DNA from: a virus
Reading direction: 5' to 3' (one strand)
Virus record (IMG/VR): IMGVR_UViG_3300045988_083839
Location: 1-42,878 of that record
Length of the DNA stretch: 42,878 nucleotides
Shown: one piece after another, positions 2,964 through 38,344 of the stretch
Layout: each line of letters begins with the position of its first letter
Position numbering within the stretch: position 1 is the first letter of the stretch
Position numbers and translations under genes: made by a program
Notes under the pieces: generated by a model
Database searches by the model: none
Told to the model about the DNA's origin: nothing
What the model saw: only the letters and a program-made list of their open reading frames with translations

Positions 2964-2977
2964 TTGCGATACCGCAA
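2964..2977. promoter_or_regulatory. Palindrome TTGCGATACCGCAA (copy 1, one mismatch), 23 nt upstream of the int ATG
   Basis: Member of the TTGCGA-NN-TCGCAA family. It is preceded by the hairpin 2923-2941 plus ATTTTTTATACT. Confidence 0.5.
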
Positions 2978-2999
2978 CACCACCAGAAAGGATGATATT

Positions 3000-5165: not shown

Positions 5166-5229
5166 ATACTTTTCTCCTCTTAAAATGTATGTGCCCCCAC
5201 CATTACACATACAAAAACATTTGTTTTCA

Positions 5230-21033: not shown

Positions 21034-24000
21034 TTATACCTCCAAAACTGCGGCGCTGATAGCCGCGATTTTACTGTCTACATAGGATTTTGTATCTACG
21101 GTGTAGGTCAGCTCCATGTTACAGCCGCCTGTGTTGGTGACTTCGGTGGTTCCTGCGTACATCGTGAGGGCGTTGAGCTGTGCTTGCTCAGATGGGGAGA
21201 GGGGGATAGTCTCGGATTCCTTCGTTTTATACACAAGTTCTGTCGGATTAACTTTCAACCATTCTTTAAACTGGCTCACAGTTGTGATTTCTCTGTTTGG
21301 CGGTCTGAAATATTTCACTCCAAGAGTAATATGGTCGCAATAGTATCCAACTTTATCCTTATGAGTAGAATTATAAACATAATCTTGATTTATAAATCTA
21401 GTGCACAAACTTGTCTGATTCCCGCCTGACGCATCTTTAAAAAGAGATGTGAGCACAATTCCTTCCTTTTCTTGCTGAGTTGCATCATTTATCGAATAGT
21501 TGATATCCCCCAACATAATAGTATTATGCTGATACACCCAATACCACACTCCATCCACCTTTTCCAGCTTATCCCACTTGGTAAACGGGCGAGGCGGTGT
21601 TAAGGTGATAGACTGCTGCTCTGTGCCACCTTTAATCGTGACGGTCACAGGCTGGTCGGTTATCTCGATGGGCTGTTCCCAGTCAGGGGAGGGGGAAGGG
21701 AAACCACCGGAGTAGGGTTCATAGGCGGTGGCAGAAGCTCCTCGCTCAAGCTGGATATTTTTTACACTCAAAGTCTCTCCGACTACATCATTATCTCCCG
21801 TAAACGGAATACCAATTCTAAATGGCGAATCGACCTTGAATGTTATGTTTCTGGATAACGTCTTGTTATTTTTTATCAGATAATTTTTGTAATAATCATT
21901 AAAAGCACAAGAATCCACGCTATACGATAATGGTTCTACGGTCAAAAGAATAGTCATTTTTTGCGCTACACTATTTTTTGTCTTATCAGCGGAAAAAGTA
22001 TATTCTCCGGCAGGATACTCCTTGGAAAACATAATGTAACTACTGCCCCAAGTGTCTGCTAGAGTACAATCAATAAGATTATCTTTTATTTCAAAAGTTC
22101 CTTTTGAAAAGGTTGTTTCACCTTTTATATCAAACAGATTCTTCCCACTCGTTCGCACCTGTTCCGTCTTGCCCCACATGGCAAACCGAACAACCGGCAC
22201 CCTCGAACTGTCAGTTACCTTTATACCCCCCCCCGAGATTTTCTGACTAATTAGGGCTGACTGGATATTCACCAGCTTGGCATTGAGTCTTTCTTCCATG
22301 TTCCGGATATAGGTTCCGGTATCTGCCACATAGCTCGCTTCCATGTGTGCCCCAGCATCGTTTGTGATAACGGTGGTCGGATAGTTGGTGTGGAGGGCTT
22401 CGTAAGCGGCGAGTTCTTCCGGGGTGAGGTCGCGCTCGATGGGGGCGGCAAGGACGTATTGAGTAATTACTGGGCTTCCAGAATCGCTTTTTGTTTTAAG
22501 CAGTTCTTTCAACTCAGAACCATTACTAACTCCCCATTTTGCTGAGTTGAAACCAAACGTTTTTCCGGTGTTATTTGAAAATGTTACATTACCATAGTTT
22601 GATAACAGGCCACCATCAATTCTTAACCCGGCTAACCCATCACTCCTCATATTAACAACTATTGTTGGCAGCCAACTATCACTCATCAGCTCTGTCCCAT
22701 CGAAAACATACTTTCCTACCCTCTGCACATACTTCCCACGCCCCAAGTCAATCTCATCGCAAATCCACTGCTGACCGTTTTGGTCAGTGTAGTTGCCGTC
22801 TTTCGTCACTGGCACACCGGGGAGACCGTTCGGGGTGGCGAGGGTGAGGGATTGAGGCTCTGCGCCATTAACTGTTACCGTAATACTTCCGCTCTCACCG
22901 GCATTCACAATCGGCACTGGATTTTCCACACTCGGCGTCCCATCCTGCATACTCTTCCCGAACACGCTCAGCCCCTCAAACAACTTGTCGGAGCTGTCCG
23001 TCAGAGTCATGGTCTCACCCTGCGCGGTCTCAATAATGGCATCCGCTTTGCCCTGATGCAGGGTGACAATCTCTCGCCCTGTGACCTGTGCATCCGCAGC
23101 CTGCCCAGACTGGGTGAGGGTTGGATCCGTTTTCGTCTGGGCATCTCCCAGTTCCACGTTACCGTCCGCGCCAACCACAAGGGCTTTCCCTGCGTTGTCT
23201 GCTCCCTGCTGCTTGTCAACCTTGTCCTCAATCGCCTGTTTATTCGCCGCAATCTGCTCCCGGTCTGCCACAATTCCAGCAGCCGCATCCTGCACCCTCT
23301 TGGTCTGTGTATCGCCCTCTGTGGTAACTGCCTGAATGGCTTCTGCCTTAGCCTCGGCAACGTCACTGACTGCCTGTGTGCCTGCCTGCTGCACCGCTGT
23401 GGTCTGTCTCTGCCCCTCTGCAGAAACTGCTCCCACAGCCGCCTCCTGAGCCTGTCCAACGGCATTAATCGCGCCCTGGGCGGTCTGTTCGAACTGCGTG
23501 GCTGTATTTTCTACCGCCTGCCGGTCCGCTGCTACTGCCTGCCTGTCAGTATCCACCGCTTCCCGTATCTGCTCCACTAATCTGTGGGTCTCGCTTACCT
23601 CAACCCGGTCTCGCTCCACCTCTTCCATGGCTGCCTCTGCTCCTGCCTCAGCACTCTCAGCGGCGGTCTGTGCCTCTTTTGCGGCGGTACTGGAACGTTC
23701 TGCTGCCTGTGCGCTTTCTTCGGCTTTCTGGGCATTCTGAGCGGTCTCTGTTGCCATCTGAGATACTGCCTGCTTATCTTTGGCAACTGCTGCCGCATCC
23801 TGCTTTACCTGCTCGGCAACCTGCCCGGCTCCGGCAATCTCACCCTCAATTTTACCGGCTGCTTCTTCCGCTGCTTTCTGGGCGGCTTCAGCTCCTTCTC
23901 TTGCCGTCTCTGCCCGGTCTGCGGATGCATTTACCGCCTCAATGGCTTCCCGGAAGAGTTCTGCATCTTCTGGTGTGTCATGCTCTTCCGGCTTCGGTCT

Positions 24001-24321
24001 GCGCTTTACCTGCACAGAGATTCGCTTAATGGTTTTGCCGGATGTCTTATCCGCCAGGTAGATCCATGCGTAAATCTCATAGGTCGCGCCTGCTGCCTGA
24101 TTTTCCAACAGGCTATCCGGAATGACTACCTCTGTCACGCCGTCCTTGGTGGTACCTACTCTGGTAATGGCATCCCCGGACTGTTCTGTTAATGCGAAAT
24201 GGATTTCTACCGCTGTGGGCAGTTTCAATCCTTCTATCCGTAATCTCTGCCCGTAGTCCCACTGCCAGAGGCCAGTAGCGCGGGCATAGTCGCTGTTATC
24301 TGTAAATACTGCTGTTATCAT
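21034..24321 (-). CDS. Large fiber/receptor-binding-like structural protein (BppU-N-like N-terminus, long Ala/Glu coiled coil, C-terminal beta-rich domains)
   Basis: 1095 aa. The N-terminal ~110 aa resemble a BppU_N Ig-like domain. Residues ~130-400 are an AEAAQKAAEEA-type coiled coil. The C-terminus carries IQLERGASATAYEPY-type fiber motifs. Confidence 0.6.
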   Translation of the reverse strand: MITAVFTDNSDYARATGLWQWDYGQRLRIEGLKLPTAVEIHFALTEQSGDAITRVGTTKDGVTEVVIPDSLLENQAAGATYEIYAWIYLADKTSGKTIKRISVQVKRRPKPEEHDTPEDAELFREAIEAVNASADRAETAREGAEAAQKAAEEAAGKIEGEIAGAGQVAEQVKQDAAAVAKDKQAVSQMATETAQNAQKAEESAQAAERSSTAAKEAQTAAESAEAGAEAAMEEVERDRVEVSETHRLVEQIREAVDTDRQAVAADRQAVENTATQFEQTAQGAINAVGQAQEAAVGAVSAEGQRQTTAVQQAGTQAVSDVAEAKAEAIQAVTTEGDTQTKRVQDAAAGIVADREQIAANKQAIEDKVDKQQGADNAGKALVVGADGNVELGDAQTKTDPTLTQSGQAADAQVTGREIVTLHQGKADAIIETAQGETMTLTDSSDKLFEGLSVFGKSMQDGTPSVENPVPIVNAGESGSITVTVNGAEPQSLTLATPNGLPGVPVTKDGNYTDQNGQQWICDEIDLGRGKYVQRVGKYVFDGTELMSDSWLPTIVVNMRSDGLAGLRIDGGLLSNYGNVTFSNNTGKTFGFNSAKWGVSNGSELKELLKTKSDSGSPVITQYVLAAPIERDLTPEELAAYEALHTNYPTTVITNDAGAHMEASYVADTGTYIRNMEERLNAKLVNIQSALISQKISGGGIKVTDSSRVPVVRFAMWGKTEQVRTSGKNLFDIKGETTFSKGTFEIKDNLIDCTLADTWGSSYIMFSKEYPAGEYTFSADKTKNSVAQKMTILLTVEPLSYSVDSCAFNDYYKNYLIKNNKTLSRNITFKVDSPFRIGIPFTGDNDVVGETLSVKNIQLERGASATAYEPYSGGFPSPSPDWEQPIEITDQPVTVTIKGGTEQQSITLTPPRPFTKWDKLEKVDGVWYWVYQHNTIMLGDINYSINDATQQEKEGIVLTSLFKDASGGNQTSLCTRFINQDYVYNSTHKDKVGYYCDHITLGVKYFRPPNREITTVSQFKEWLKVNPTELVYKTKESETIPLSPSEQAQLNALTMYAGTTEVTNTGGCNMELTYTVDTKSYVDSKIAAISAAVLEV

Positions 24322-24385: not shown

Positions 24386-24727
24386 TTAAATGAACGGTAT
24401 TAAGTCTTTTATCGTTTGCAATGTATCCAATGCTTTTTTCATTGAAGAATTCTCCGCCAAATACTCAATCCCTGGCGGCGTTATTCTCAATTTATTGTAT
24501 TGAAGCTTTACTTGCACCTCTGGATTTCCCATGATTTTTTTAGATATCACACCTGTAATGTAACCATACTCTGATAAGTTCTGAAAAATATAGTTCCAGT
24601 ATGATTCGTTGATACCAAGTGCTTCCGGAGAAAGCAGTTCTGGATCTGGAGCAATTCCCTTTTTCAAGCATTTGTATAAATAGTCAAGAATCTTTGCGGC
24701 TATCACAAAATAATCATCTCTGGCCAT
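24386..24727 (-). CDS. YjcQ-like winged-helix protein
   Basis: DYFVIAAKILDYLYKCLKKGI...YGYITGV...ITPPGIEYLAENS is a YjcQ-family pattern. GAGGAG RBS 6 nt before ATG 24727. Confidence 0.6.
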   Translation of the reverse strand: MARDDYFVIAAKILDYLYKCLKKGIAPDPELLSPEALGINESYWNYIFQNLSEYGYITGVISKKIMGNPEVQVKLQYNKLRITPPGIEYLAENSSMKKALDTLQTIKDLIPFI

Positions 24728-24983
24728 GTACATCTCCTCTTAATAAAATTTTATGGTAAATTTCTGTTACTGCCTGTATTAATTCCTTATCATTCAGCAC
24801 TTCCTCATCTGCCTCATCAAAAGGCTCATATGATGCGCATATCTCAGGCATATCATCTAACATATCAAGCCACTCTTCATCCTTTAAATCTAACATTGCT
24901 TCTGGAAAATCGTATGAAAAATCATTGCAGTTATATTCTCCATCTATGAGCTGTCGCATCATTTCCAATAATTTTTCTTTCAT
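24714..24983 (-). CDS. Acidic small protein, candidate immunity protein for the MuF C-terminal toxin
   Basis: 89 aa and highly acidic. ATGA overlap with the MuF stop. Confidence 0.5.
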   Translation of the reverse strand: MKEKLLEMMRQLIDGEYNCNDFSYDFPEAMLDLKDEEWLDMLDDMPEICASYEPFDEADEEVLNDKELIQAVTEIYHKILLRGDVHGQR

Positions 24984-26491
24984 TTACTCCCCCAACCCTT
25001 CTTCGGTTTATTTCTGACTACAATCGAAACCACTTCTTCGGTCTGCTCATTCTGAATTGCAGCTATTCCATTATAAAACTTTACTGTTCTTCCCCCTTCT
25101 TCCAAATAATTCACGGAAGAATCCAGCACCTTTAATAATTCATCTTCGGTAAAAGCCTTCTTTCCCCTTCCTGTTTTCTGTCCAAGATAGCGGTTTAATG
25201 AATGATCCGTAAATTCATATCCTTTATCCTTAAATCGGTAATATGTGCTCCGCATCTTACTTCTGTATTCTTCTGAGTAAGATTCTTTTTCCATAATTTT
25301 TGAAATGGTTGCAAATTCCCTCTTCTTAGCGTTCCACTTCTCACTATCAGTATACTTCATTGTTTGGAAAGAATCCAGAGTTTCAGGCGCATCCTTACCC
25401 AGTATTTTTCGGTATCTTTGGAACTGCTCATTATCTGCCTTTTTATTTCGCTGCTTCCGCTCTGCCAGGCGCTTATCTGGATTCTTCTCAACATACTGCT
25501 CGTGCCACTGCTTGTAGGTCATATCTGCCGGGACTTCATAGGTTTTCCCTGTTTCTGGGTCTCTGGCCACTCTGGCCATTCCATTGGTCGGCGTATCGGC
25601 ATAATGTGGGACATCTGTACAGCGACAAAGCGGGTGGAACGGCGGCATATTGACACCTGTGATTTCCTTCCCAACCTCGTACACATTGCCGTCCAGTTCT
25701 CCGCAAATCTCACAAGTCTTACTGTCGAGAGTTGCTAAAATCTCGTACTTTTCCACCCCATCCTCTTTGTATCCTGCGTGAGTAGCCTCGCTTATCAGGA
25801 AGGATGACTCTGTATGCAGCAGCCGGTATGCATCAAACTTTTTCGACTGCATCTTTTTGGCAAACTCTCTTGTCAGGGTGGACGGGTGTTTGCCCTGAAT
25901 TAGCATTGTGGTCACTGCCTCTGTCAGCTGCGTTTGCAGATGGTCTTTCTGTTTCCAAATCCTGGAAGAGAATGCCGCACCATTAAACGGATATTCCAGC
26001 AACTTTTCCACTGTTCGAGGTTCCACCTGCGCAAAAGCCTGATGAAATCCGTGATACTGGTCGATACTGTACCATGTCCGGTAATAAGTATCCTCGTAGA
26101 CCTCCTGCATGGTTCTTTCTGATTCTGCCTGATAATCAATCGCGTAGAGCTGTCTGAGAATCGCATCCACCTGCATCTCCAGAGCCTGATAACGGGTCAC
26201 TCTGGCCTTTAAGGACATATTATTAACCTGTTGGTTATATTTTCCAATGTTATCCATAGCAAGCGCAATAAAATCATTAAGCTCTCCCAGCTCCTCTGCA
26301 TTAAGCCGCTTCTGAGCTGCTGCGAAGGATAAGCCGTTTTCCTCTGCATACCTAAAATAGAAAGCCTCTATCGTCTTTTGCAACTCCCTCTTTGTCTGGT
26401 TAAATACTTTTTCCAACCGCTTAAAGTATTGATTAACCTGCATCTCTCCGGCCTTGTACATAGCCTCCTGCCGCTTCTGCCAGTAATCCAC
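24980..26491 (-). CDS. MuF / SPP1 gp7-like minor head protein with a ~200-aa C-terminal toxin-like extension
   Basis: The MuF core includes CEICGELDGNVYEV...PPFHPLCRCT. The C-terminus YEFTDHSLNRYLGQK...FTEDELLKVL...GRTVKFYNGIAAIQNEQTEEVVSIV resembles DUF4258/RelE-like (BECR) toxin modules. GTG start overlaps the portal stop. Confidence 0.7.
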   Translation of the reverse strand: MDYWQKRQEAMYKAGEMQVNQYFKRLEKVFNQTKRELQKTIEAFYFRYAEENGLSFAAAQKRLNAEELGELNDFIALAMDNIGKYNQQVNNMSLKARVTRYQALEMQVDAILRQLYAIDYQAESERTMQEVYEDTYYRTWYSIDQYHGFHQAFAQVEPRTVEKLLEYPFNGAAFSSRIWKQKDHLQTQLTEAVTTMLIQGKHPSTLTREFAKKMQSKKFDAYRLLHTESSFLISEATHAGYKEDGVEKYEILATLDSKTCEICGELDGNVYEVGKEITGVNMPPFHPLCRCTDVPHYADTPTNGMARVARDPETGKTYEVPADMTYKQWHEQYVEKNPDKRLAERKQRNKKADNEQFQRYRKILGKDAPETLDSFQTMKYTDSEKWNAKKREFATISKIMEKESYSEEYRSKMRSTYYRFKDKGYEFTDHSLNRYLGQKTGRGKKAFTEDELLKVLDSSVNYLEEGGRTVKFYNGIAAIQNEQTEEVVSIVVRNKPKKGWGSK

Positions 26492-27964: not shown

Positions 27965-29428
27965 TCATTTTAAAATCCGGATGCCCGGTTTCATTCTGAT
28001 AATCGTCATGCATAGGTAGCGTAATCCATCGAGACAATGGTCATGCTCTTTCACCGGCTTATCCTCGCCCTTTTCCGCTGCTTTTGCATCCCAAATATAG
28101 GACGCGAACTCTTTTATCAGGTTATCGCAGTTTTTATCAATCAAAATAGCACCCTGGTTCAGTAGTGTAGCCACAAACCGGATGCCATCTAAAACATCAT
28201 TTTTTGCTTTTTTGACCTTAAAGCCGTCTTTTTCCAACTGAGCTTTAAAGGATGCAGCCGCAGGATCCAGTACCACAAAACGGATACTCTCGCCATGCAG
28301 CCAGTCTTTTAAATCCCTGGAAAATTCTGCATCTGTCTTTTGCCTGCCTTTATCTCTGCCGGAGTAATAATACTCCCGCCGGCAGTACCATTTCTTGTCC
28401 GTGCCTTGCTGCCACAAAAGGAAGGCGGTCGGGTTCTGAGTGCCGTAGTCGCAGCTGACATACTTATCACCAATCCAGAAATCATGCCCTGTCCTAGCTT
28501 TGTATGCAGCCGCCAGAGCCTCAGTATCCACGGTATGCTTGTCGGGGTCAAACATATCATAGATAACACCCTCAGCCATCGCCCAGAGCCCCATGATATA
28601 ACGCTTGAAAAAGACACCGGTATACATGCTCCGATACCTGTCCTTAATCTCTTCTGACAGGCTCAGATTATCGTCCATGGTAAAATGGACATACAGTAAT
28701 TTTTTGAGGTCTGGTTCCTTTCCTGCGGCCTCTGCTTCAGCTTTTATCCTGGCAACCTTTTTCTTGCCCAGGTAGCCAATGGCCTTGTCAATCCAGTTTA
28801 CCTTGAACCAGTGATAGGGCCCATCCGGGTTACAGTTAAACCAGTATTTTGACCCAGTCACAGAACAACGGCCTGTTGCCTGATTGACAAAGCTCTCTGG
28901 CATCAGCGCTACCTCATCACAGAACAGGCCCGCCAGAGTAATACCCTGTATCAGGTCCTGGCTGCGCTCGTCCTTGCCGCCAAAAATGTAAAAATAGTTG
29001 GTGACTGCTCCGCGGCTTATTTCCACCAGATTATCTGCCCGGTGGTCTACAACCTGATACCCGCGACTTTTTAACATCAGTTTCAGCCAAAACAGCACAT
29101 TGCGGCGAAATGAGCCGATGGTCTTACCGCACATGGCGAAGTTTTGGCCGTTAAAGGCACTCATGGCCCACATCACAAACGACAGCGACATGCATACCGT
29201 TTTTCCGGAACGAATCGCCCCATCTGCTATGATGCCGTCATAATCCTTCACAGGACTGTTTGGAGTCCACCAGGTAAGAATTTGCTTCTGCCGGCGCGAG
29301 AACGGTTGAAACTGAAAGACCTGCACCTTTTTCAGGATGCCACGCTTCCCTTTTAGGCTTTCTACTTTGCTTTTTATCTGCTCAATCTTGTCTCGAATCA
29401 TCTGCATCACTCCACAGCTCTCCAGCAT
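27965..29428 (-). CDS. terL: Terminase large subunit
   Basis: Walker A-like GAIRSGKT and Walker B-like LFCDE are present, with a C-terminal nuclease region. The start is ambiguous (ATG 29428, 29407 or 29401; 29401 has the best GGAG spacing). Confidence 0.88.
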   Translation of the reverse strand: MLESCGVMQMIRDKIEQIKSKVESLKGKRGILKKVQVFQFQPFSRRQKQILTWWTPNSPVKDYDGIIADGAIRSGKTVCMSLSFVMWAMSAFNGQNFAMCGKTIGSFRRNVLFWLKLMLKSRGYQVVDHRADNLVEISRGAVTNYFYIFGGKDERSQDLIQGITLAGLFCDEVALMPESFVNQATGRCSVTGSKYWFNCNPDGPYHWFKVNWIDKAIGYLGKKKVARIKAEAEAAGKEPDLKKLLYVHFTMDDNLSLSEEIKDRYRSMYTGVFFKRYIMGLWAMAEGVIYDMFDPDKHTVDTEALAAAYKARTGHDFWIGDKYVSCDYGTQNPTAFLLWQQGTDKKWYCRREYYYSGRDKGRQKTDAEFSRDLKDWLHGESIRFVVLDPAAASFKAQLEKDGFKVKKAKNDVLDGIRFVATLLNQGAILIDKNCDNLIKEFASYIWDAKAAEKGEDKPVKEHDHCLDGLRYLCMTIIRMKPGIRILK

Positions 29429-30155
29429 CAGCGTTTAGTGCTTCCAGGAATCCGTCATCCTCTATCTCAGCCTCCTGGCCGCCCAGCTTAAGGGCCTGCA
29501 AATCAAGCCGCATTAGTTCGATTTCTAGGCGAGCATCATCCACGCCATACCGGTGCAACGAATCAATGGCAGCCTGCTTTCGGGCCTGTACACGGGTCAG
29601 CGCGTCCTCTATGTTCTGGATCTGCCCCAGCGTTGCACGGTTCTCACTTAAATCCGTTATTTCGCCTTTTTCAATTCCGATTTTTTCAATTCCGATTTTT
29701 TTTGAAACTGTTGTAAAATCAGCCTGCCGCAGATTCTCGATACGTTTTAACATCCGGCGTTCCCGGACAGTCAAGAGCTGTATCTCCTGGAGAAGAAGCT
29801 GCTCTTTGTCCAGCGAAACTGCCTCGGCCAGCCGGCGCTCATCGGAATCCAGGCAATCAAAAAAGAGAGTTTCAAACTCTCCTGTCGTTACTGCATTTTT
29901 ATTCTGTTCAGGCGCCCCATAACCGGCTGCATTCTGATTTCCTGGCTGACCGCCTTTTTTACGTTTGGAACGTTCCGTATTCTTTCGGAGCGTTCCATTC
30001 AATTTCTGGTCCCATTTATCCTTAGATTTCCATCCTCGAATCGTTCCCGATGATAAATTTAGTTGACTTGCAATCTCAACTAAATCAATGCTTCCACCGG
30101 CTTTCTTAAATATTTCAAAGGCTTTGTCCCGATTAGGATCCCTGGCTCTTCCCAC
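29382..30155 (-). CDS. terS: Terminase small subunit
   Basis: N-terminal HTH (IASQLNLSSGTIRGWKSKDKW) and the GGQPGNQNA motif. GTG start with a GAGGTGG RBS. Confidence 0.8.
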   Translation of the reverse strand: MGRARDPNRDKAFEIFKKAGGSIDLVEIASQLNLSSGTIRGWKSKDKWDQKLNGTLRKNTERSKRKKGGQPGNQNAAGYGAPEQNKNAVTTGEFETLFFDCLDSDERRLAEAVSLDKEQLLLQEIQLLTVRERRMLKRIENLRQADFTTVSKKIGIEKIGIEKGEITDLSENRATLGQIQNIEDALTRVQARKQAAIDSLHRYGVDDARLEIELMRLDLQALKLGGQEAEIEDDGFLEALNADAGELWSDADDSRQD

Positions 30156-30197
30156 TCACCACCACCTCTCATTCGTTTGTTTTTTGGGGTATAGAAA

Positions 30198-30219
30198 AGA
30201 GCCGCACGGTGGCGGCTCT
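30198..30219 (-). terminator. Intrinsic terminator closing the two-gene AT-rich cassette
   Basis: Minus strand reads AGAGCCGC-CACCGT-GCGGCTCT followed by TTTCT. Confidence 0.75.
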
Positions 30220-30246
30220 GGTCGTTGCATCAACTGTTATTTTTTA

Positions 30247-30876
30247 TCAAAAATCCTCTTCATCCAACATCTCCAGAAGTCTTGTAACAGCATAAATATT
30301 AAACAGTTGAAAAATTGTAGAAATAAAACTAAATGTCCTCCATAATATTATTCCAATAAAAACAAAATAAATTACAATTAAAGCTATTGCACTTATGTTA
30401 TTTACTATCAAATTTGAAAATAGTAAGAAATTATCTGGGATGCAAAACATAATTACTTTTATAATTAGTGTGAATGTTATTGCTGTAATATACAATAGCA
30501 TTAAATATACAAAATGCTCATTAATGTCTTGTAATCTACTTTTTTCTCCTCCTTCATAAGTCTTCACATCATTTAGAAGTTGAAGTAACATATGTTTATT
30601 CATAAAAGCCTGCAACAATGCATATCCCGTAAAAATCACGCCCAAAAGCGCTAGCATTACATTTAATGCATCATCTATAACTTGTCGAAAAACTATCACT
30701 GTGTCTGTATGTATTCCAACTATACTTCCCAAAACGCAGCAAACTATTATCAATATCCATCGTGATTTTTTATACTTTTTTTCGACTCTAAGACCCTTAA
30801 TTGCTTTTAAAAGTAATTGCTCAGAGGGTTCAGACTTAAGCAACTGCTCAATATTATCAATATTTAAATTATTCAT
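30247..30876 (-). CDS. Multi-pass membrane protein (209 aa, 4-5 predicted TM helices), unknown; cassette gene B
   Basis: Hydrophobic segments are WILIIVCCVLGSIVGI, VMLALLGVIFTGYALLQAF, FVYLMLLYITAITFTLIIKVIMFCI and AIALIVIYFVFIGIILW. Acidic tail is EMLDEEDF. GGAGGGGGAAG RBS. Very AT-rich. Confidence 0.75.
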   Translation of the reverse strand: MNNLNIDNIEQLLKSEPSEQLLLKAIKGLRVEKKYKKSRWILIIVCCVLGSIVGIHTDTVIVFRQVIDDALNVMLALLGVIFTGYALLQAFMNKHMLLQLLNDVKTYEGGEKSRLQDINEHFVYLMLLYITAITFTLIIKVIMFCIPDNFLLFSNLIVNNISAIALIVIYFVFIGIILWRTFSFISTIFQLFNIYAVTRLLEMLDEEDF

Positions 30877-30898
30877 AATTCTTCCCCCTCCAAATGTT

Positions 30899-31882
30899 TT
30901 ATTTCCCTTTGCGAATAAACTGAACTATCTTGTCTTGATTCTTTTGATATATCCTATTGTTTTCCTCACTAGTATATTTTATACTATCTATTTCTTTTCC
31001 CTGTTTAATCATACTGTATAATTCCGTTTTTCTTTCCCCTTCTGGAATGGTCATTTTTCTCCTATCTGATATTTCATGATACTTTATAGTAGACTCCCCT
31101 TTTCTTCCTGGATATTTGGCCACCACAACAGGTTCCACCGTTCCTTCTGCAGCCTCGACCACTTCTATAACGCCATTTATATTCTTTGGAGATCGATATG
31201 TTACTGACCCTCGGTCACTACCAATTCTTCTACGCAATTCCTTAGTAACGCCATCCATTATACCAGATAATTCTATATCCCCATCACCATTTAATGGGTA
31301 AAACTTCAATGTCAGCGTTGAAATTTTTTCAACTTGCTTCAATACTTCTATCATACCACCCTTGGGAGGTATTCCTACAATGCTAACAAGAGGAACTGGA
31401 AGCAACTCTCTATCTTGCTCCATCCTTATATGATTTTCCCTTACAATAAATGTATCCAAAACATATTTAGCTGTCGAGCGAAAACTATCTAAAGATGGGC
31501 TTCCTTTCTGATTCTCAACCAATATCATCCTGTGATTTTTTAAATAAATAACAAATGTGGAAAATGGAGCAGTTGGATAAATATCATTTCTTTCAACAAG
31601 ATTTCCATATTCATCAAACATAGATTTGACTTCAAGGACTGTACTTTTAACAATCAATCCCGTCAAAATATATTCCATATCTGAATCCTGCTGAACTTCA
31701 ACATCTAAAAATAAATATGTGTTATCTCCTTGGCTTCTTGTAATACCACTTTTAAAAGCCGGCATTACAATAGTGTCAAAATAATCCAGCAATGGACTTT
31801 CCGTTTCATTTTCCATGAAAACCACATTAAAATTGGCCACGGATACCTTTTTCTCATTAATAGCAGTTCTATTTTTATCCAT
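30899..31882 (-). CDS. Soluble 327-aa protein of unknown function; cassette gene A
   Basis: ATG 31882 is preceded by GGAGAG. The longer ORF start at 31924 overlaps the -10 box. I could not recognise any P-loop, cyclase, TIR or nuclease motif. Confidence 0.75.
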   Translation of the reverse strand: MDKNRTAINEKKVSVANFNVVFMENETESPLLDYFDTIVMPAFKSGITRSQGDNTYLFLDVEVQQDSDMEYILTGLIVKSTVLEVKSMFDEYGNLVERNDIYPTAPFSTFVIYLKNHRMILVENQKGSPSLDSFRSTAKYVLDTFIVRENHIRMEQDRELLPVPLVSIVGIPPKGGMIEVLKQVEKISTLTLKFYPLNGDGDIELSGIMDGVTKELRRRIGSDRGSVTYRSPKNINGVIEVVEAAEGTVEPVVVAKYPGRKGESTIKYHEISDRRKMTIPEGERKTELYSMIKQGKEIDSIKYTSEENNRIYQKNQDKIVQFIRKGK

Positions 31883-31912
31883 ATCGCACTCTCCAATCCG
31901 ACATTTTTCTAC

Positions 31913-31921
31913 ATTATACCA
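31913..31921 (-). promoter_or_regulatory. Extended -10 promoter (TGGTATAAT) of the two-gene cassette
   Basis: Minus strand reads CATGTGGTATAATGTAG, about 30 nt upstream of ATG 31882. Confidence 0.6.
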
Positions 31922-32083
31922 CATGCCGTACTGGAAAATCTTTCCAAATATGTTCTTATGTATTTGTATATTATGTTGCGTAGCTTACAAACATTCTTTT
32001 CTACATTTGTATTTTAGAACATTTGTTCGATTTTTGTAAAATACCAATAAGTTATGACTATCTATTTTTCCATAACAAAAAGA

Positions 32084-32101
32084 CACCCTCTCACGAGGAT
32101 G
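32084..32101 (-). terminator. Intrinsic terminator of the structured RNA
   Basis: Minus strand reads CATCCTC-GTGA-GAGGGTG (GNRA loop) followed by TCTTTTTGTT. Confidence 0.7.
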
Positions 32102-32245
32102 CCTCTCTGTCGTGTCTGGAATGTCTGGGTGGAGATCCCGAAACCAGAACTATGATGGTCTTTAGGTTTCCCATGGCACCGTCAAACCAAAGCCCCCACC
32201 AGGCTGTAACACCTGGCAGGAGTATATTGAAAAGGAGGATCACAA

Positions 32246-32314
32246 TCGACACATCCGGAATCGAACCGGAGACCAGGGTGAAAGCCCGCCACCTACCACT
32301 GGTGGTATATGCCG
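32246..32314 (-). ncRNA. Embedded non-canonical tRNA-like cloverleaf (69 nt, loop CUUUCAC)
   Basis: Acceptor CGGCATA/TGTGTCG has two G-U pairs. D-arm is CACC-AGTGGTA-GGTG. The anticodon-like stem CGGG/CCTG has only 4 bp, with a 7-nt loop CTTTCAC. T-arm is TCCGG-TTCGATT-CCGGA. The variable region is 2-3 nt and no CCA is encoded. Confidence 0.45.
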
Positions 32315-32478
32315 TTGCTGCCCTGGAGGCTAACCAGGGCGATAATCGAAAGACGTATTATGTACTAGCCCAGGTGTGGGCCAATTGACCGCAGGCTGTG
32401 ACACCGGGCGGTCGAAAATCACATTGAGGGGATAATCCAGAAGCCGCTGGCTGGATGCCTTTGGCTTCATGATATAGA

Positions 32479-32970
32479 TTAACATATTTCTTCGGGACAT
32501 TGGGGGACATTTTCCAATTTTTTAAAATATCTTTGAATTCGTTTTTTAACGTTCTCATCCGTATATTTTATTTTTCGATTTGGATATTCATTGTTCATGT
32601 ATTCCGCTGTTTTTACAAATGTCAATCCATCAATAAAATAAAATCTAAACATCGTTCTCAGTTCTGATTTCTGGATACTGTCTATGTATTCCTCTGCTTG
32701 GCAAGTCAGCTCCAAAAGTTCCGCTTCTTTTGCCTCCAACAACGCCCTGTACCGCATTCTCGCGTTTTTCTTGCGGGTATACTCCCGATCCGGAATCCCA
32801 GTAATCTTAATCGGCCCGATTGTCAAATCCTTCCTGCTCCCTGTTACGGTATCTGCTACAATCGGCGGTTTCTCCAGGAACTTGTCCAGCTTCATGATTC
32901 TCTGCCGTAAATCCTTTATCTCTTCTTTCATCTCGCAATACTGTATCAGCACCTCCTTATCCAACGGCAT
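32479..32970 (-). CDS. Late-gene transcriptional activator candidate (sigma-70 region-4-like; DUF1492/RinA/ArpU-type analogue)
   Basis: The N-terminal coiled coil is followed by SELRTMFRFYFIDGLTFVKTAEYM, a sigma r4-type HTH. It sits at the early/late boundary. TGATG coupling to the upstream small ORF. Confidence 0.55.
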   Translation of the reverse strand: MPLDKEVLIQYCEMKEEIKDLRQRIMKLDKFLEKPPIVADTVTGSRKDLTIGPIKITGIPDREYTRKKNARMRYRALLEAKEAELLELTCQAEEYIDSIQKSELRTMFRFYFIDGLTFVKTAEYMNNEYPNRKIKYTDENVKKRIQRYFKKLENVPQCPEEIC

Positions 32971-33149
32971 CACCTCCTAACTCTTCCAGTTTCATCTCTA
33001 ATTGCTATCCGTCCAACAATTTCCACATTGCACTCTCTGGCAGCAGCCTTCATCAGCCGAATTACCAGTTCCACATTGTCCGGCTGCTTGTCTGCCCTGT
33101 GGATCGCTTTCCCAGCTGTCGGGTCAGGGTAGCCTTCTGCGTTCTTCAT
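32970..33149 (-). CDS. Small conserved protein (59 aa), unannotated in the ORF track
   Basis: My translation is MKNAEGYPDPTAGKAIHRADKQPDNVELVIRLMKAAARECNVEIVGRIAIRDETGRVRR*. I recall the MxNxEGYxDPTA family from Clostridia phages and ICEs. Confidence 0.6.
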   Translation of the reverse strand: MKNAEGYPDPTAGKAIHRADKQPDNVELVIRLMKAAARECNVEIVGRIAIRDETGRVRR

Positions 33150-35973: not shown

Positions 35974-36198
35974 TCACTCCGCATTACCCTTTCTTGCCCT
36001 GAAATCCATGATCGCAATTAAATCCGAAACTAAATTTCTCGCAAGGAAGCAGTTATGTTTTTTCATGAGTTGCTTCCCCTCATTAACAATCTCTTCCCAT
36101 CCGACACTATCAGATATATCTGGAAGGCTATCCCGGTATTTCATCCAGAACCCATTGTATATATCCGTAAACACGGAAGATACTTCTTTGTTTGTCAT
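35974..36198 (-). CDS. Hypothetical protein (74 aa)
   Basis: GGAGAGGAAAG RBS. First gene downstream of the origin region. Confidence 0.5.
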   Translation of the reverse strand: MTNKEVSSVFTDIYNGFWMKYRDSLPDISDSVGWEEIVNEGKQLMKKHNCFLARNLVSDLIAIMDFRARKGNAE

Positions 36199-36204
36199 AG
36201 TTCT

Positions 36205-36508
36205 TTCCTCTCCAGTTACATTGAGTTACAATGATTTGTAACCATTTCATACCCCTCAAACCCGCATAAAATATAGGTTTCTTCTTGTCGGTTACAAAGT
36301 TACAAGGTTACAACACTTTTTTCCCTATACGCGCGAGACACATATATTATTAATTTTTCATTCATATATATCTCCCTATATAGGCTTATAAAAAACTTGT
36401 AACTTTTGTAACCTTGTAACCGTACCCCTCAAACCCGCATAAAACCTAGGTTTTTCGGTTACAAATCGATTCAAAATTTTTTAACCTTTCCATAAAAATC
36501 TGTAACCC
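36205..36508. promoter_or_regulatory. Candidate origin of replication (iterons plus AT-rich core)
   Basis: GTTACA(A) sits at 36215, 36225, 36291, 36299, 36307 and 36448. The inverted TTGTAAC sits at 36236, 36397, 36406 and 36414, with TGTAAC at 36501. AT-rich core spans 36314-36396. A 22-bp direct repeat tacccctcaaacccgcataaaa occurs at 36250 and 36423. Confidence 0.65.
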
Positions 36509-38344
36509 TTAATTAAATGGAAGCTCTCCATCTTCAACCGAAACAAATTCATTTGGTGAATTTTCGGCCATATTAATGCAGGCGCACCTGACCGCCTTTC
36601 CGTTTACCTTTGCGGATTTATACAGGTTATCACGCCCCTTTGAGAGGCGTCCAGACTGGTCTAACCATGATAGCAGCGCTCTTGGACTATAGCCTCCATC
36701 ATCGCAAATACGTTCAAACACGCTCTTAATAATGCGAACCTCGTCACCAGAGACAGATCCGAAGCATGGGTCAGAATTTGTTTCGAATTTAGCTGCATTA
36801 CTGACATAAAAATCATGAACGTATTCATATCCTCTGGCTCCTACGTCTACAGCCTCTTTTGTATGAAGGTACGGCTCTATATCTTCGGCAGTCAACGCCC
36901 TTCCATCACAGAAAATCCACTCCGTAGCTAATGCATCCGCTGTCAGAAGAATCGCTGCTGCCATAGTCTGTTTTTCTGTGCTGGATGCCCCTATGCTCCG
37001 ATAAAACTGTTTGTAAAGAGCAGCGGCCTTCTCTTTGGCTTGTTCTGTAGACATGAATGCCATAAACAACTTACCGGCATGTCCATAATTGGATCGAATT
37101 ACCTCCAGAACTTCTATCGCATCCTCAAACAATGCTTCCCGACATTCAATTTCTATAATACGGTTTATTGCACCTGCTCCAGACGAAGCATGAGTGATAG
37201 GGGATTCTCCGGAAGTGATGGTGCAATTCTTCCATGTAGGCGTCTTTTGCAGTCCTCCCGTTTTGGAACCTCTCGTTTTTCCTATTCCTTCACACAACAT
37301 GTATACGGTCTGTTCGAATGATTTTTTATCTTTTACTAACTGAAATTCATCCAATATCAGAGGTAAATTATTCACAAACCCGGCCAACTGCTCCAACCCT
37401 ACCAGCGTCCCATTGAATGTCTGAAGGTACCCAGCTCCATCGTTCGGGTCACCCCAAACAGATACTGCTAAAAGCTGCGCGACCGTTTTTCCTGTTCCGG
37501 AGCCTCCCCAAAAATGCAACATAAAGTTAAGTTTACCGATTGTTTTAATGATGATAGATGCAAAGGATGCCGCCAGCGCTATTCTGGCTGCTGAATCTGT
37601 CTTTCTGACAGACTTAGTAATTTCAAGCCACTTTTCAAATTCTCCACATGAGTGGACTGATTCAAATATCTTTCTAAAATTCTCCTGCCCATCAAATTCC
37701 AGATTCTCCATATACGGACTAAACATTCCGTTGGAAGTCCATCCAAGATGGCTTACAGATTGTGCTTCTGGGATTGTATTATGGTTTAAATCCTCTAAAT
37801 CCTGCAAGTACTCCACTAGAAAAGCAGCGTTTTTATCCGAAACAGAAATGTCTTTGTCTGCCAGTTTTTTTATTTCCCTGGAACTAAATAACGTGCTCTT
37901 ATTCGCAATTACTTCTCGCCATCCACGGAAATCCCTCCGAAACATGATTCGCAGCCGTACAGTCCCGTCATCAATGTTTACCAGACGCTGCACTGGAAGA
38001 ATCGGATGTACGCAAGCAACGTCCATTCCCTGGTTATCATTCCGACGTAAAATTCCGTCATCATTTGCAAACCAGTCTCCGGTCAGCAGCTCTATCGGCT
38101 GATCCTTAAAGTTTGTTAGGTTATTTACTACGCTACTTAGGCCGCTTCTATGCTCTTCGTGCTGCTTCATATAGGCTTTTACCATTGCTCCAAAGCGCTT
38201 AAAACCTACGCGCTCCGCATTTGCATTCAAATCATTATAGAGCTGCAGATACGCGAATCCGTCATCTTTCTTCTCAAACAGGAGGCGATATGGAGCTTCT
38301 GTATTAAATTCTTCTTTTGTAAACTCCTTTAATGAAGTGCTCAT
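36509..38344 (-). CDS. SF3-type replicative helicase (DUF927/VirE/P4-alpha C-terminal-like)
   Basis: Walker A is HFWGGSGTGKT and Walker B is LPLILDEF. It has a large N-terminal domain and lies adjacent to the iterons. Confidence 0.75.
   Translation of the reverse strand: MSTSLKEFTKEEFNTEAPYRLLFEKKDDGFAYLQLYNDLNANAERVGFKRFGAMVKAYMKQHEEHRSGLSSVVNNLTNFKDQPIELLTGDWFANDDGILRRNDNQGMDVACVHPILPVQRLVNIDDGTVRLRIMFRRDFRGWREVIANKSTLFSSREIKKLADKDISVSDKNAAFLVEYLQDLEDLNHNTIPEAQSVSHLGWTSNGMFSPYMENLEFDGQENFRKIFESVHSCGEFEKWLEITKSVRKTDSAARIALAASFASIIIKTIGKLNFMLHFWGGSGTGKTVAQLLAVSVWGDPNDGAGYLQTFNGTLVGLEQLAGFVNNLPLILDEFQLVKDKKSFEQTVYMLCEGIGKTRGSKTGGLQKTPTWKNCTITSGESPITHASSGAGAINRIIEIECREALFEDAIEVLEVIRSNYGHAGKLFMAFMSTEQAKEKAAALYKQFYRSIGASSTEKQTMAAAILLTADALATEWIFCDGRALTAEDIEPYLHTKEAVDVGARGYEYVHDFYVSNAAKFETNSDPCFGSVSGDEVRIIKSVFERICDDGGYSPRALLSWLDQSGRLSKGRDNLYKSAKVNGKAVRCACINMAENSPNEFVSVEDGELPFN

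What the first reader, a model, noticed from the sequence alone, without database searches (positions are those of the whole stretch)
30198..31924. Self-contained AT-rich two-gene moron (327-aa soluble protein plus 209-aa multi-TM protein) between the late activator and terS: candidate undescribed defence/abortive-infection system
**Seen in sequence**
- Composition drops abruptly. For example, 30361-30420 has 11 G/C of 60 by hand count, against 37 of 60 at 32281-32340 next door.
- The two genes have their own extended -10 promoter (TGGTATAAT, 31913-31921) and strong RBSs.
- They have their own intrinsic terminator (30198-30219).
- This promoter-genes-terminator moron interrupts the normally tight late-regulator-to-terS junction.

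**Inference**
- Gene A (30899-31882) shows no P-loop, cyclase, TIR, HEPN or nuclease motif that I can recognise.
- Gene B has 4-5 TM helices and an acidic tail.
- A soluble partner plus a small polytopic membrane protein is the architecture of several abortive-infection systems: Kiwa KwaA/KwaB, and the TM effectors of CBASS, Pycsar and Thoeris.
- The gene order is reversed relative to Kiwa, and I cannot establish homology to any named system.
- A constitutive promoter inside a prophage fits a lysogen-expressed superinfection-immunity function.
Basis: partly seen in the sequence, partly recalled or inferred. Interest (0 to 1): 0.82.

Follow-up and report, generated by a model that had tools for sequence, protein, structure and literature searches.

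The report
RexAB-type exclusion cassette in gut prophage
The AT-rich two-gene insert upstream of the terminase genes is real, and it is most likely a very distant relative of phage lambda's RexA/RexB abortive-infection system, belonging to a large uncharacterised family in prophages of human-gut Lachnospiraceae.

Summary
Window 30198-31924 has 33.0% GC against 44.8% overall and is the lowest-GC 1.7 kb in the window. It carries an extended -10 box, two strong ribosome-binding sites, two tightly spaced genes and a hairpin/T-run.

- **Gene A (327 aa):** no sequence-family hit. Its AlphaFold model has one significant PDB match, lambda RexA (8TWQ, Foldseek E 2e-7). Weaker hits are CENP-N/CHL4 and an RdgC-like protein, the fold group published for RexA.
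- **Gene B (209 aa):** a four-helix membrane protein, as RexB is, but homology to RexB is not shown.
- **The pair is a unit:** every intact A in about 23 distinct loci has a B homologue 0-36 nt downstream. dN/dS is 0.06 for A and 0.16 for B.
- **It moves:** it sits upstream of unrelated terS types, inside a tail module, and directly after CI-type repressors in two distant branches, as rexAB does in lambda.
- **The site is a cargo hotspot:** sister phages have swapped only the two coding sequences for another soluble + membrane pair.
- **The terminator is a backbone feature,** not the cassette's own.

Verdict: a candidate defence cassette, but of the known RexAB type. It is a new, sequence-unrelated variant. 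Function is untested.

The parts
31888..31960 (-). Promoter/leader block holding the -10 box and the ribosome-binding site. It is shared by different cargoes at this site.
   Evidence: It is 97% identical upstream of A+B (L027), of a 304+195-aa pair (L055-57) and of a 278-aa gene (L105-107). Backbone homology with the sister phages runs up to 31888. Homology with the L001-6 cassette starts at 31951.
31913..31921 (-). Extended -10 promoter element TGGTATAAT, with no clear -35.
   Evidence: Read directly in the sequence. TG-n-TATAAT or TATAAT lies at -36 to -44 from the A start codon in at least 10 distinct loci. Activity is not tested.
31889..31894 (-). Ribosome-binding site GGAGAG of gene A, 6 nt before the ATG at 31882.
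   Evidence: Sequence. Homologue alignments start at this methionine.
30899..31882 (-). Gene A: a 327-aa cytoplasmic protein with a RexA/RdgC/CHL4-type fold. Inferred to be the sensor or activator.
   Evidence: - No Pfam, PHROG, NCBIfam or PADLOC hit.
- AlphaFold2 model: pLDDT 81, pTM 0.82.
- Foldseek against PDB: 8twq_B lambda RexA, E 2e-7, probability 1.00, the only hit at E <= 1e-3. CENP-N is at ranks 2, 15 and 38.
- An RdgC-like protein is at rank 8 in BFVD.
- The family has 648 representatives at 50% identity.
- dN/dS is 0.06-0.07.
30884..30891 (-). Ribosome-binding site GGAGGGGG of gene B.
   Evidence: Sequence. The A stop and the B start are 22 nt apart.
30247..30876 (-). Gene B: a 209-aa membrane protein with four transmembrane helices. 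Its topology is inferred as N-in/C-in, with a conserved cytoplasmic central loop (EKSRLQDINE) and an acidic tail. Inferred to be the membrane effector.
   Evidence: - Hydropathy peaks at 43-61, 70-88, 128-146 and 161-179.
- AlphaFold2 helices at 33-54, 59-91, 114-145 and 156-208.
- Conserved columns are listed.
- It always lies immediately downstream of A.
- dN/dS is 0.15-0.17.
- No detectable homology to RexB.
30198..30219 (-). Intrinsic-terminator hairpin plus T-run that ends the cassette transcript. It is a backbone element of the early/late boundary, not part of the mobile unit.
   Evidence: Found by the scan. An equivalent hairpin with a different stem sequence and a T-run is present in phages with empty or differently filled sites. 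Backbone homology with the sister phages resumes at 30218.
29382..30155 (-). terS (small terminase), the downstream flank of the hotspot.
   Evidence: PF10668 E 9.5e-17, phrog_1889 E 1e-73, NF040601 E 3e-67.
32479..32973 (-). Putative late transcriptional regulator, the upstream flank of the hotspot.
   Evidence: phrog_36 'transcriptional regulator', E 4.5e-13. Homologues flank the same site in other phages.

Best explanation
The cassette is a RexAB-type two-component phage-exclusion (abortive-infection) module carried as a moron by a temperate Lachnospiraceae phage.

**Shown**
- Gene A has the RexA fold.
- Gene B is a 4-TM protein encoded 22 nt downstream on the same strand.
- The two genes are inherited and moved together under purifying selection.
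- The unit is dispensable cargo at a hotspot.

**Inferred, by analogy with lambda RexAB, Sbash gp30/31, CarolAnn gp44/43, P. putida RexABpp and V. cholerae Sucellos**
- The genes are transcribed in the lysogen from the extended -10 promoter.
- A is a cytoplasmic dimer that binds DNA non-specifically and senses a product or DNA-protein intermediate of a superinfecting phage.
- Activated A engages the conserved cytoplasmic loop of B.
- B oligomerises or opens as a channel or pore. The membrane depolarises, ATP falls, growth stops, and the infection aborts before progeny are made.
For: **Fold of A**
- The only significant PDB match is lambda RexA 8twq_B: E 2e-7, probability 1.00, 334 aligned columns. 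The next hit has E 0.026.
- That next hit and two others are CENP-N, the CHL4 orthologue. A BFVD hit is an RdgC-like 'recombination-associated protein'.
- Adams et al. 2024 describe exactly this RexA/RdgC/IML3-CHL4 fold group (PMC11077077).
- The model's element order fits their description. It has seven N-terminal strands with helices, then a four-strand/helix central domain, then C-terminal helices.

**Partner**
- B has four TM helices, like RexB, Sbash gp31, CarolAnn gp43 and PP_5644 (PMC6426596, PMC12894663).
- The order is soluble gene then membrane gene, as in rexA-rexB.

**Unit**
- All intact A genes in L001-L044 have a 4-TM B homologue at -19 to +36 nt.
- The exceptions are decayed copies: L028, L041 and L042.

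**Lambda-like context in distant branches**
- Klebsiella P2-like phage 4LV2017 has cI, then an A-like gene (349 aa), then an unannotated 201-aa 4-TM ORF, then int.
- A 24%-GC contig has an HTH_3+Peptidase_S24 repressor, then an A-like gene, then a 203-aa B homologue with E 7e-23.

**Accessory and mobile**
- Cassette GC is 27-33% in every locus against 32-51% in the flanks.
- It lies upstream of PF10668-type and PF03592-type terS with several TerL types, and also between the tape measure and DUF6711.
- Related phages have empty sites of 184-515 nt.
- The window is a temperate phage with an integrase, and the pair also sits in an Enterocloster chromosome.

**Selection:** dN/dS is 0.06-0.17.
Against: - There is no sequence-level link to any characterised Rex system.
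  - Pfam RexA and RexB models do not match.
  - hhalign of the A family against the RexA family gives probability 0.2%.
  - hhalign of the A family against CarolAnn gp44 gives 0.1%.
  - hhalign of the B family against the RexB family gives 0.1%.
- The DUF4747 mark on some A homologues is only 'faint' and is not reproduced by hmmscan.
- The Foldseek TM-score to 8TWQ is low (0.29/0.33, rmsd 13 A).
- B gave no significant structural match. Four-helix membrane proteins are common.
- No expression, DNA-binding, interaction, toxicity or exclusion data exist for this family.
- Lambda RexA also has a role in the lysis-lysogeny switch that is not defence.
- In phage Butters the soluble protein, not the membrane protein, is the effector.
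Confidence: 0.6

Rival explanations
1. It is a Rex-type pair with Butters-like polarity. The soluble RexA-fold protein A is the antiviral effector, for example by binding phage DNA or replication intermediates. B only tethers or sequesters A at the membrane until infection releases it.
For: - In mycobacteriophage Butters, gp30 (soluble) is the effector and gp31 (4 TM) modulates it (PMC7542560; summarised in PMC12894663).
- RexA-fold proteins bind DNA (PMC11077077).
- A is more strongly constrained than B: dN/dS 0.06 against 0.16.
Against: - B is never lost where A is intact.
- B's most conserved parts are a cytoplasmic loop and the end of TM4. This fits an effector that is gated as well as it fits an anchor.
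- Four of the five systems summarised in PMC12894663 use the membrane protein as effector. Sucellos needs both genes, and SclB is modelled there as a pore.
Confidence: 0.1
2. It is a phage-development function rather than defence. A is a RexA/RdgC-fold DNA-binding protein, and with B it tunes the lysogeny-lysis transition or the switch to late transcription and packaging. Any exclusion would be a by-product.
For: - Lambda RexA biases the CI/Cro switch independently of RexB, and Adams et al. raise the possibility that exclusion is a by-product (PMC11077077).
- Distant members sit directly after CI repressors.
- In the window the cassette sits at the early/late boundary next to the late regulator.
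Against: - Closely related phages with the same backbone lack A+B and carry unrelated cargo or nothing at this site. It is therefore not needed for development.
- The same pair also occurs inside a tail module.
- The AT-rich composition and cassette swapping are typical of accessory or defence cargo.
Confidence: 0.12
3. It is a defence or toxin system that is mechanistically unrelated to Rex. On this view the RexA-like fold reflects a generic DNA-binding scaffold or a Foldseek coincidence, and B is an independent pore or SLATT-like effector.
For: - No sequence homology to any Rex protein.
- Low TM-score to 8TWQ.
- A weak SLATT_4 match for B, E 0.027.
- No PADLOC hit.
Against: - RexA is the single significant hit among 350,542 PDB chains. 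It happens to be the one protein known to work with a downstream 4-TM partner in prophages.
- The weaker hits fall in RexA's published fold group.
- cI-A-B synteny matches lambda.
- SLATT_4 appears in only 4 of 31 B homologues, far below its cut-off of 55 bits.
Confidence: 0.1
4. It is an ordinary phage membrane function that happens to lie next to an unrelated soluble gene. Examples would be a holin or antiholin, or a superinfection-exclusion protein that blocks DNA entry.
For: B is a small polytopic membrane protein with a charged C-terminus. Prophage Sie proteins are often small membrane proteins (general knowledge).
Against: - The lysis module is elsewhere: a CHAP endolysin lies at 4317-5210.
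- B is strictly coupled to A, with 0-36 nt spacing, across roughly 50% sequence divergence.
- The pair is absent from sister phages, which still must lyse.
Confidence: 0.05

Closest known systems
Phage lambda RexA/RexB (PF15969/PF15968; PDB 8TWQ for RexA)
   Same: - A has the RexA fold: Foldseek E 2e-7, the only significant PDB hit.
- The order is soluble gene first, then a 4-TM membrane gene, on the same strand and closely spaced.
- It is carried by a temperate phage.
- In distant A-family branches the pair follows the CI repressor exactly as in lambda.
   Different: - No sequence or profile similarity.
- A is 327 aa against 279. B is 209 aa against 144, with a soluble N-terminal extension of about 36 aa and an acidic tail.
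- In the window the pair is not in the immunity region. It sits at the late-regulator/terS boundary with its own -10 box.
- The host is Clostridia, not Enterobacterales.
- Function is untested.
Actinobacteriophage Rex-like systems: Sbash gp30/gp31, CarolAnn gp44/gp43 (and Toast, Blino), Butters gp30/gp31
   Same: - A prophage-borne soluble protein plus a 4-TM protein.
- Sbash 30/31 also have their own promoter and lie away from the repressor, near tail genes. This is like the tail-module copies of A+B (PMC6426596).
- The central cytoplasmic loop of the membrane partner matters in Sbash gp31. In B that loop is the most conserved soluble segment.
   Different: - No detectable similarity of A to gp44 or of B to gp43.
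- The soluble partners are about 370 aa.
- The hosts are Actinobacteria.
- Their link to RexA in the 2019-2020 papers rested on weak HHpred matches to DUF4747. For the A family the DUF4747 signal is only faint.
Pseudomonas putida RexABpp (PP_5643/PP_5644) and Vibrio cholerae Sucellos (SclA/SclB)
   Same: - Both were recognised as RexAB-type mainly by predicted structure, although Pfam RexA/RexB do not match. That is the situation here (PMC12894663; bioRxiv 10.1101/2024.07.02.601686).
- Sucellos has its own promoter, needs both genes, and kills or arrests infected cells.
   Different: Whether either belongs to the A/B family is untested. The Klebsiella and low-GC branches are candidates.
- PP_5643 reaches RexA by HHpred (98%). 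The A family does not reach RexA by hhalign.
   Same: A small 4-TM protein plus a soluble protein of about 310 aa.
   Different: - No PADLOC KwaA or KwaB hit for the window proteins or for nine homologues.
- The gene order is opposite.
- No Kiwa chain appears among the top 50 PDB structural matches.

Membership tests
Lambda RexAB sensu stricto (Pfam RexA PF15969 + RexB PF15968) | The soluble partner matches the RexA profile. | tested here: not met
   - Pfam finds nothing for A or for 32 A homologues, while lambda RexA scores E 1e-97 on PF15969.
- hhalign of the A family against the RexA family gives probability 0.2%.
Lambda RexAB sensu stricto (Pfam RexA PF15969 + RexB PF15968) | The membrane partner matches the RexB profile. 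| tested here: not met
   - No Pfam hit for B.
- hhalign of the B family against four RexB sequences gives probability 0.1%.
- Only a short shared F-Q-L-[YF]-N motif at the end of TM4 was seen.
RexAB-type systems (structural/architectural class: lambda, Sbash, CarolAnn, RexABpp, Sucellos) | The soluble partner has the RexA two-domain fold, related to RdgC and IML3/CHL4. | tested here: met
   - Foldseek against PDB: 8twq_B, E 2e-7, probability 1.00, the sole hit at E <= 1e-3. CENP-N is at ranks 2, 15 and 38.
- An RdgC-like protein is at rank 8 in BFVD.
- The secondary-structure order is consistent with the published RexA description.
- Caveat: TM-score is 0.29-0.33 and no per-domain superposition was possible.
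RexAB-type systems (structural/architectural class: lambda, Sbash, CarolAnn, RexABpp, Sucellos) | A four-TM membrane protein is encoded immediately downstream on the same strand, and the two genes are inherited together. | tested here: met
   - Four TM helices.
- A B homologue lies at -19 to +36 nt in every locus with an intact A.
- This also holds in distant branches.
RexAB-type systems (structural/architectural class: lambda, Sbash, CarolAnn, RexABpp, Sucellos) | Carried by a temperate phage or prophage and expressed in the lysogen, either from its own promoter or together with the repressor. | tested here: inconclusive
   - Prophage carriage is shown: an integrase in the window and a copy in the Enterocloster chromosome.
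- A conserved -10 box lies upstream.
- cI-adjacent copies exist.
- Expression in lysogens cannot be tested with these tools.
RexAB-type systems (structural/architectural class: lambda, Sbash, CarolAnn, RexABpp, Sucellos) | Both genes are required for exclusion of heterologous phage, and the membrane partner causes depolarisation or growth arrest when triggered. | not testable with these tools
   This needs cloning, phage challenge and membrane-potential assays.
RexAB-type systems (structural/architectural class: lambda, Sbash, CarolAnn, RexABpp, Sucellos) | The soluble partner dimerises and binds DNA non-specifically. | not testable with these tools
No multimer or DNA modelling is available.
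DUF4747 (PF15931), the domain weakly linked by HHpred to RexA, Sbash gp30 and CarolAnn gp44 | Match to the PF15931 profile. | tested here: inconclusive
   - A precomputed PF15931 mark is present on 14 of the 120 listed A homologues, but it is graded 'faint'.
- It is not reproduced by hmmscan at E <= 1-10 on those proteins or on the alignment members.
Sucellos (SclA/SclB) | Sequence similarity to SclA and SclB. | not testable with these tools
   The sequences are not in the accessible collections, and the name was not found in the held supplement.
Kiwa (KwaA + KwaB/DUF4868) | Match to the KwaA and KwaB models, with the membrane gene first. | tested here: not met
   No PADLOC hit at E <= 1 for A, B or nine homologues. 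The gene order is soluble gene first.
CBASS/Pycsar/Thoeris-type TM effectors (SLATT and relatives) | A signal-generating partner (cyclase or TIR) and a SLATT or other named effector domain. | tested here: not met
   - No cyclase or TIR family in A.
- SLATT_4 scores E 0.027 (14 bits against a cut-off of 55) and appears in only 4 of 31 B homologues.

The most novel reading that the evidence does not exclude
The junction between the late regulator and terS in this group of Lachnospiraceae phages may be a fixed expression frame. It would consist of a conserved extended -10 promoter/leader on one side and a conserved terminator hairpin on the other. Many mutually unrelated 'soluble ~300-340 aa + 3-4-TM ~190-245 aa' pairs would be swapped into it as alternative alleles. 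A+B would then be one of a hidden radiation of Rex-type modules with different trigger specificities.

What the evidence shows so far:
- Only the two coding sequences differ between the window and its sister phages.
- The same leader precedes three different cargoes.
- At least four other soluble + TM pairs occupy the site. One of them is remotely related to A: hhalign probability 62%, E 7.5e-5.
Probability: 0.35. Interest if true: 0.65.

Novelty: new variant of a known kind. Interest (0 to 1): 0.5.

Why it matters
- **Taxonomic reach.** The papers read here describe six RexAB-type systems, all in Proteobacteria or Actinobacteria. A January 2026 paper counted five (PMC12894663), and Sucellos adds a sixth. 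This family would extend the type to Clostridia of the human gut.
- **Missed by current tools.** The family is large: 648 representatives at 50% identity. Pfam and PADLOC do not detect it, so gut-phage defence inventories probably miss it.
- **A handle on an old problem.** How RexA activates RexB is still unresolved 70 years after Benzer's observation. A large, diverse family of strictly coupled A/B pairs gives material for co-variation and complex modelling of the sensor-effector interface. The conserved central loop of B is an obvious candidate contact.
- **A natural comparison.** The hotspot, with exchangeable cargo between a shared leader and a shared terminator, offers a ready-made experiment on specificity.
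- **Limit.** Without any phenotype the function remains an inference.

Tried and rejected
**Family libraries**
- Pfam, PHROGs, NCBIfam and PADLOC on A and B found nothing usable. The same holds for nine homologues and for distant family members.

**Sequence searches against solved structures**
- Profiles A1, A4 and A2 against PDB sequences gave only noise.

**Sequence bridges to Rex proteins**
- All of these hhalign comparisons were null:
  - A1 against lambda RexA.
  - A2 against lambda RexB.
  - A4 against a 19-sequence RexA alignment.
  - A4 against CarolAnn gp44.
  - A6 against four RexB sequences.
- The DUF4747 lead from precomputed marks turned out to be 'faint' and not reproducible.

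**Other leads on B**
- The SLATT lead was rejected: 4 of 31 members, 14 bits.
- Foldseek of the B model against BFVD found nothing significant.

**Nucleotide and RNA searches**
- megablast of the region against GenBank phages found no match.
- Rfam and tRNA scans of the window found nothing, including in the GC-rich non-coding stretch 32100-32480.

**Technical failures**
- The search for related loci with the diverse alignment A4 failed for lack of a conserved stretch. A1 was used instead.
- RNAalifold on a MAFFT alignment of the terS-upstream hairpins failed because the stems were not aligned in register. The hairpins were folded one by one instead.

**Sucellos:** its sequences could not be obtained.

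**Hypotheses considered and rejected**
- A packaging accessory of terS. The pair also sits in tail modules and next to cI, and sister phages lack it.
- A holin. The lysis genes are elsewhere.
Full report
**1. The observation**

Region 30198-31924 lies on the minus strand between terS and a putative late regulator. terS is at 29382-30155 and matches PF10668, phrog_1889 and NF040601. The regulator is at 32479-32973 and matches phrog_36.

The segment is 33.0% GC against 44.8% for the window, z = -3.6. It contains the lowest-GC 1.7 kb of the whole window.

TGGTATAAT lies at 31913-31921. GGAGAG lies 6 nt before the ATG at 31882, and GGAGGGGG lies before the ATG at 30876. The consensus scan finds the hairpin/T-run at 30219-30198.

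The longest ORF of A starts at 31924, inside the -10 box. Homologues and the ribosome-binding site favour 31882, giving 327 aa. B has four hydrophobic helices, not five.

The window is a temperate phage. It carries:
- a tyrosine integrase at 2964-4070;
- an HTH protein at 784-1287;
- a CHAP endolysin at 4317-5210;
- a DUF927 primase at 36509-38344.

**2. What the proteins are**

Neither protein hits Pfam, PHROGs, NCBIfam or PADLOC.

A has more than 351 close relatives in the 5.8-billion-protein collection. A profile search finds 648 representatives at 50% identity. B has 48 word-index relatives.

An AlphaFold2 model of A (pLDDT 81, pTM 0.82) was compared with 350,542 PDB chains.
- One match is significant: 8twq_B, lambda RexA, with E 2e-7, probability 1.00 and 334 aligned columns.
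- The next hit has E 0.026 and is CENP-N in the human CCAN. CENP-N recurs at ranks 15 and 38.
- In BFVD the model matches five uncharacterised phage proteins (E 2.5e-11 to 2e-6). At rank 8 it matches a 'recombination-associated protein'.

Adams et al. (PMC11077077) describe RexA as follows:
- a split seven-stranded globular domain plus a four-stranded dimerisation domain;
- homologous in fold to RdgC and to IML3/CHL4, and CHL4 is the yeast CENP-N;
- crystallised in a closed state that must rotate about a hinge to bind DNA.

The secondary hits therefore fall in RexA's own fold group. The order of elements in the model fits. A different domain orientation may explain the low global TM-score of 0.29-0.33, but I could not test this per domain.

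At the sequence level nothing links A to RexA or to CarolAnn gp44, or B to RexB or gp43. The DUF4747 mark that first pointed to Rex is only 'faint' and is not reproducible.

**3. The pair as a unit**

I examined 44 loci from metagenomes, genomes and one GenBank phage. In all of them, every intact A is followed on the same strand by a 4-TM B homologue at -19 to +36 nt.

The only exceptions are a frameshifted B (L028), a split A (L041) and an A remnant (L042).

dN/dS is 0.06-0.07 for A and 0.15-0.17 for B.

Genome hits are all Lachnospiraceae, Clostridia or Bacillota: Sporofaciens, Roseburia, Dorea, Faecalimonas and Enterocloster.

**4. Mobility and context**

The identical A protein (P0002) sits in front of PF10668-type and PF03592-type terS genes. 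Those phages have different TerL, portal and replication modules.

Other alleles do the same. One group lies between a tape-measure-like gene and DUF6711 in the tail module.

Cassette GC is 27-33% everywhere, against 32-51% in the flanks.

Two distant branches reproduce the lambda immunity-region layout:
- Klebsiella P2-like phage 4LV2017 has cI, then an A-like protein of 349 aa (tblastn E 3e-11; E 1e-21 to the A profile). Next comes an unannotated 201-aa 4-TM ORF, then int. The 201-aa ORF aligns to the B profile at hhalign E 0.0026.
- A 24%-GC contig has an HTH_3+Peptidase_S24 repressor, then an A-like protein (P0314), then a 203-aa B homologue with E 7e-23.

**5. The site is a hotspot**

I collected 80 IMG/VR loci with related terS genes. 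In these the interval between the late-regulator homologue and terS takes two forms:
- It is 184-515 nt when empty.
- It is 0.7-2.6 kb when filled with low-GC cargo of many kinds.

Several of these cargoes are again soluble + 3-4-TM pairs: 304+195, 304+200, 333+245 and 340+187 aa. The 333-aa protein aligns to the A family at hhalign probability 62%, E 7.5e-5.

Sister phages L055-57 have terS 93-95% identical to the window's. They match the window down to 31888 and again from 30218. Only the two coding sequences are exchanged, here for the 304+195 pair.

The promoter/leader is 97% identical in front of three different cargoes.

The hairpin/T-run about 40 nt before terS is present in empty and filled sites alike. 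Its stems differ in sequence but still pair. The terminator is therefore a backbone element, not the cassette's own.

The block the window shares with the L001-6 cassette runs from 31951 to 30254, that is, promoter plus A plus B.

**6. Mechanism**

Shown:
- A has the RexA fold.
- B is a 4-TM partner.
- The two genes are strictly coupled.
- The unit is accessory, mobile cargo in temperate phages.

Inferred from characterised RexAB-type systems (PMC6426596, PMC6426606, PMC12894663, bioRxiv 10.1101/2024.07.02.601686):
- The genes are expressed in the lysogen.
- A senses a component of the infecting phage.
- A activates B, and B compromises the membrane and aborts infection.

B's positive-inside pattern puts both termini and the conserved loop (residues 93-119, EKSRLQDINE) in the cytoplasm. 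That loop is a plausible contact for A. [quoted passage not shown]

Rivals are Butters-type polarity, a switch-modulating rather than defensive role, a system unrelated to Rex, and an ordinary membrane function. They are listed with their tests.

**7. Novelty and verdict**

The finding is real, and the defence candidacy is reasonable. It is not a new kind of system, though. It is a sequence-unrelated variant of the RexAB type.

Three things appear to be new. They do not appear in the papers I could search.
- **Taxonomic setting:** gut Clostridia.
- **Family size:** 648 representatives at 50% identity.
- **Exchange frame:** the cargo-swapping site at the early/late boundary.

Whether the family overlaps Sucellos or RexABpp could not be tested. 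No phenotype exists.

Noticed in passing
L055 3421-4912, L057 2577-4068 (sister phages of the window); also L130 3313-4795, L103 3165-4917, L114 1589-3187, L069 3515-4933: The same slot between late regulator and terS holds other two-gene pairs: a soluble protein of about 300-340 aa followed by a 3-4-TM protein of about 190-245 aa. Most have no detectable similarity to A or B. The exception is L103's 333-aa protein (hhalign to the A family: probability 62%, E 7.5e-5). Other occupants include single genes of 253-703 aa.
   Followed up: partly
window 30156-30219 and the equivalent ~70 nt upstream of terS in L002, L007, L055, L064, L068, L089, L091, L103, L105: A GC-rich hairpin (different stem sequences, all still pairing) plus a T-run is conserved about 40 nt upstream of terS, whether the site is empty or filled. 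It is followed by a conserved leader, AAAAAC(A/G)AAACGAATGAGAGGTGGTGG. There is no room for a standard promoter between the hairpin and terS. How late transcription reaches terS is unexplained: it could be read-through, antitermination, or an unusual late promoter overlapping the T-run.
   Followed up: partly
window 32100-32480: This non-coding stretch has 53-54% GC and lies between the late regulator and the cassette promoter. It holds a 12-bp terminator-like hairpin at 32222-32193 (-) and a promoter-like site at 32040-32011 (-). It is 88-93% conserved in sister phages. No Rfam family or tRNA was found.
   Followed up: partly
L022 4540-5145 (= NC_047818.1 complement 1244-1849), Klebsiella phage 4LV2017: An unannotated 201-aa ORF with four TM helices lies between the A-like gp02 and the integrase. 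It completes a cI / A-like / 4-TM trio arranged like lambda cI-rexA-rexB.
   Followed up: yes
gene B residues 188-196 (window about 30289-30315) and lambda RexB residues 134-138: Both families have a conserved F-Q-L-[YF]-N motif at the cytoplasmic end of TM4. In RexB, Q135, L136 and N138 are invariant. In B, L191 and F192 are invariant and N193 nearly so. The motif is too short to be significant, and hhalign does not align the two families.
   Followed up: partly
gene A residues 196-202 (window about 31277-31297): The invariant motif P-L-N-G-D-G-D resembles an EF-hand calcium loop. There is a weak match to CaBP1 (E 0.36), but the motif lacks the canonical Gly6 and Glu12, and some homologues have a two-residue deletion there. 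The strongly conserved L-K-N-H-R-M...E-N-Q-K-G-S-P motif (residues 114-129) precedes the long helix and could correspond to a hinge.
   Followed up: no
L028 (Sporofaciens musculi), L041 (Roseburia MAG), L042 (Lachnospiraceae MAG): These are decayed copies: B split in two by a frameshift, A split in two, and a 107-aa A remnant without B.
   Followed up: no
L059 ~4700-4785 and L101 ~4900-4990: tRNA-like sequences (GGTTCAAATCC, GGGTTCAAGCCC T-arm motifs) lie directly upstream of terS in phages whose site otherwise looks empty. tRNA genes may be another kind of occupant of the slot.
   Followed up: no
BFVD entries A0A8S5S8L2 and A0A8S5S8H0 (Siphoviridae sp. ctylc9): The best viral structural match of A (E 2.5e-11) and the fifth-ranked, non-significant match of B (E 0.4) come from the same uncultured phage. 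This hints at a further A-like/B-like pair beyond sequence detection. Whether the two genes are adjacent was not checked.
   Followed up: no
window 21034-24321 (-), 24386-25500, 36001-36500: A 1095-aa ORF has no Pfam hit and includes a 58-60% GC stretch at 23001-24000. Two further low-GC patches (35-39% GC) lie elsewhere in the window and may be other morons.
   Followed up: no
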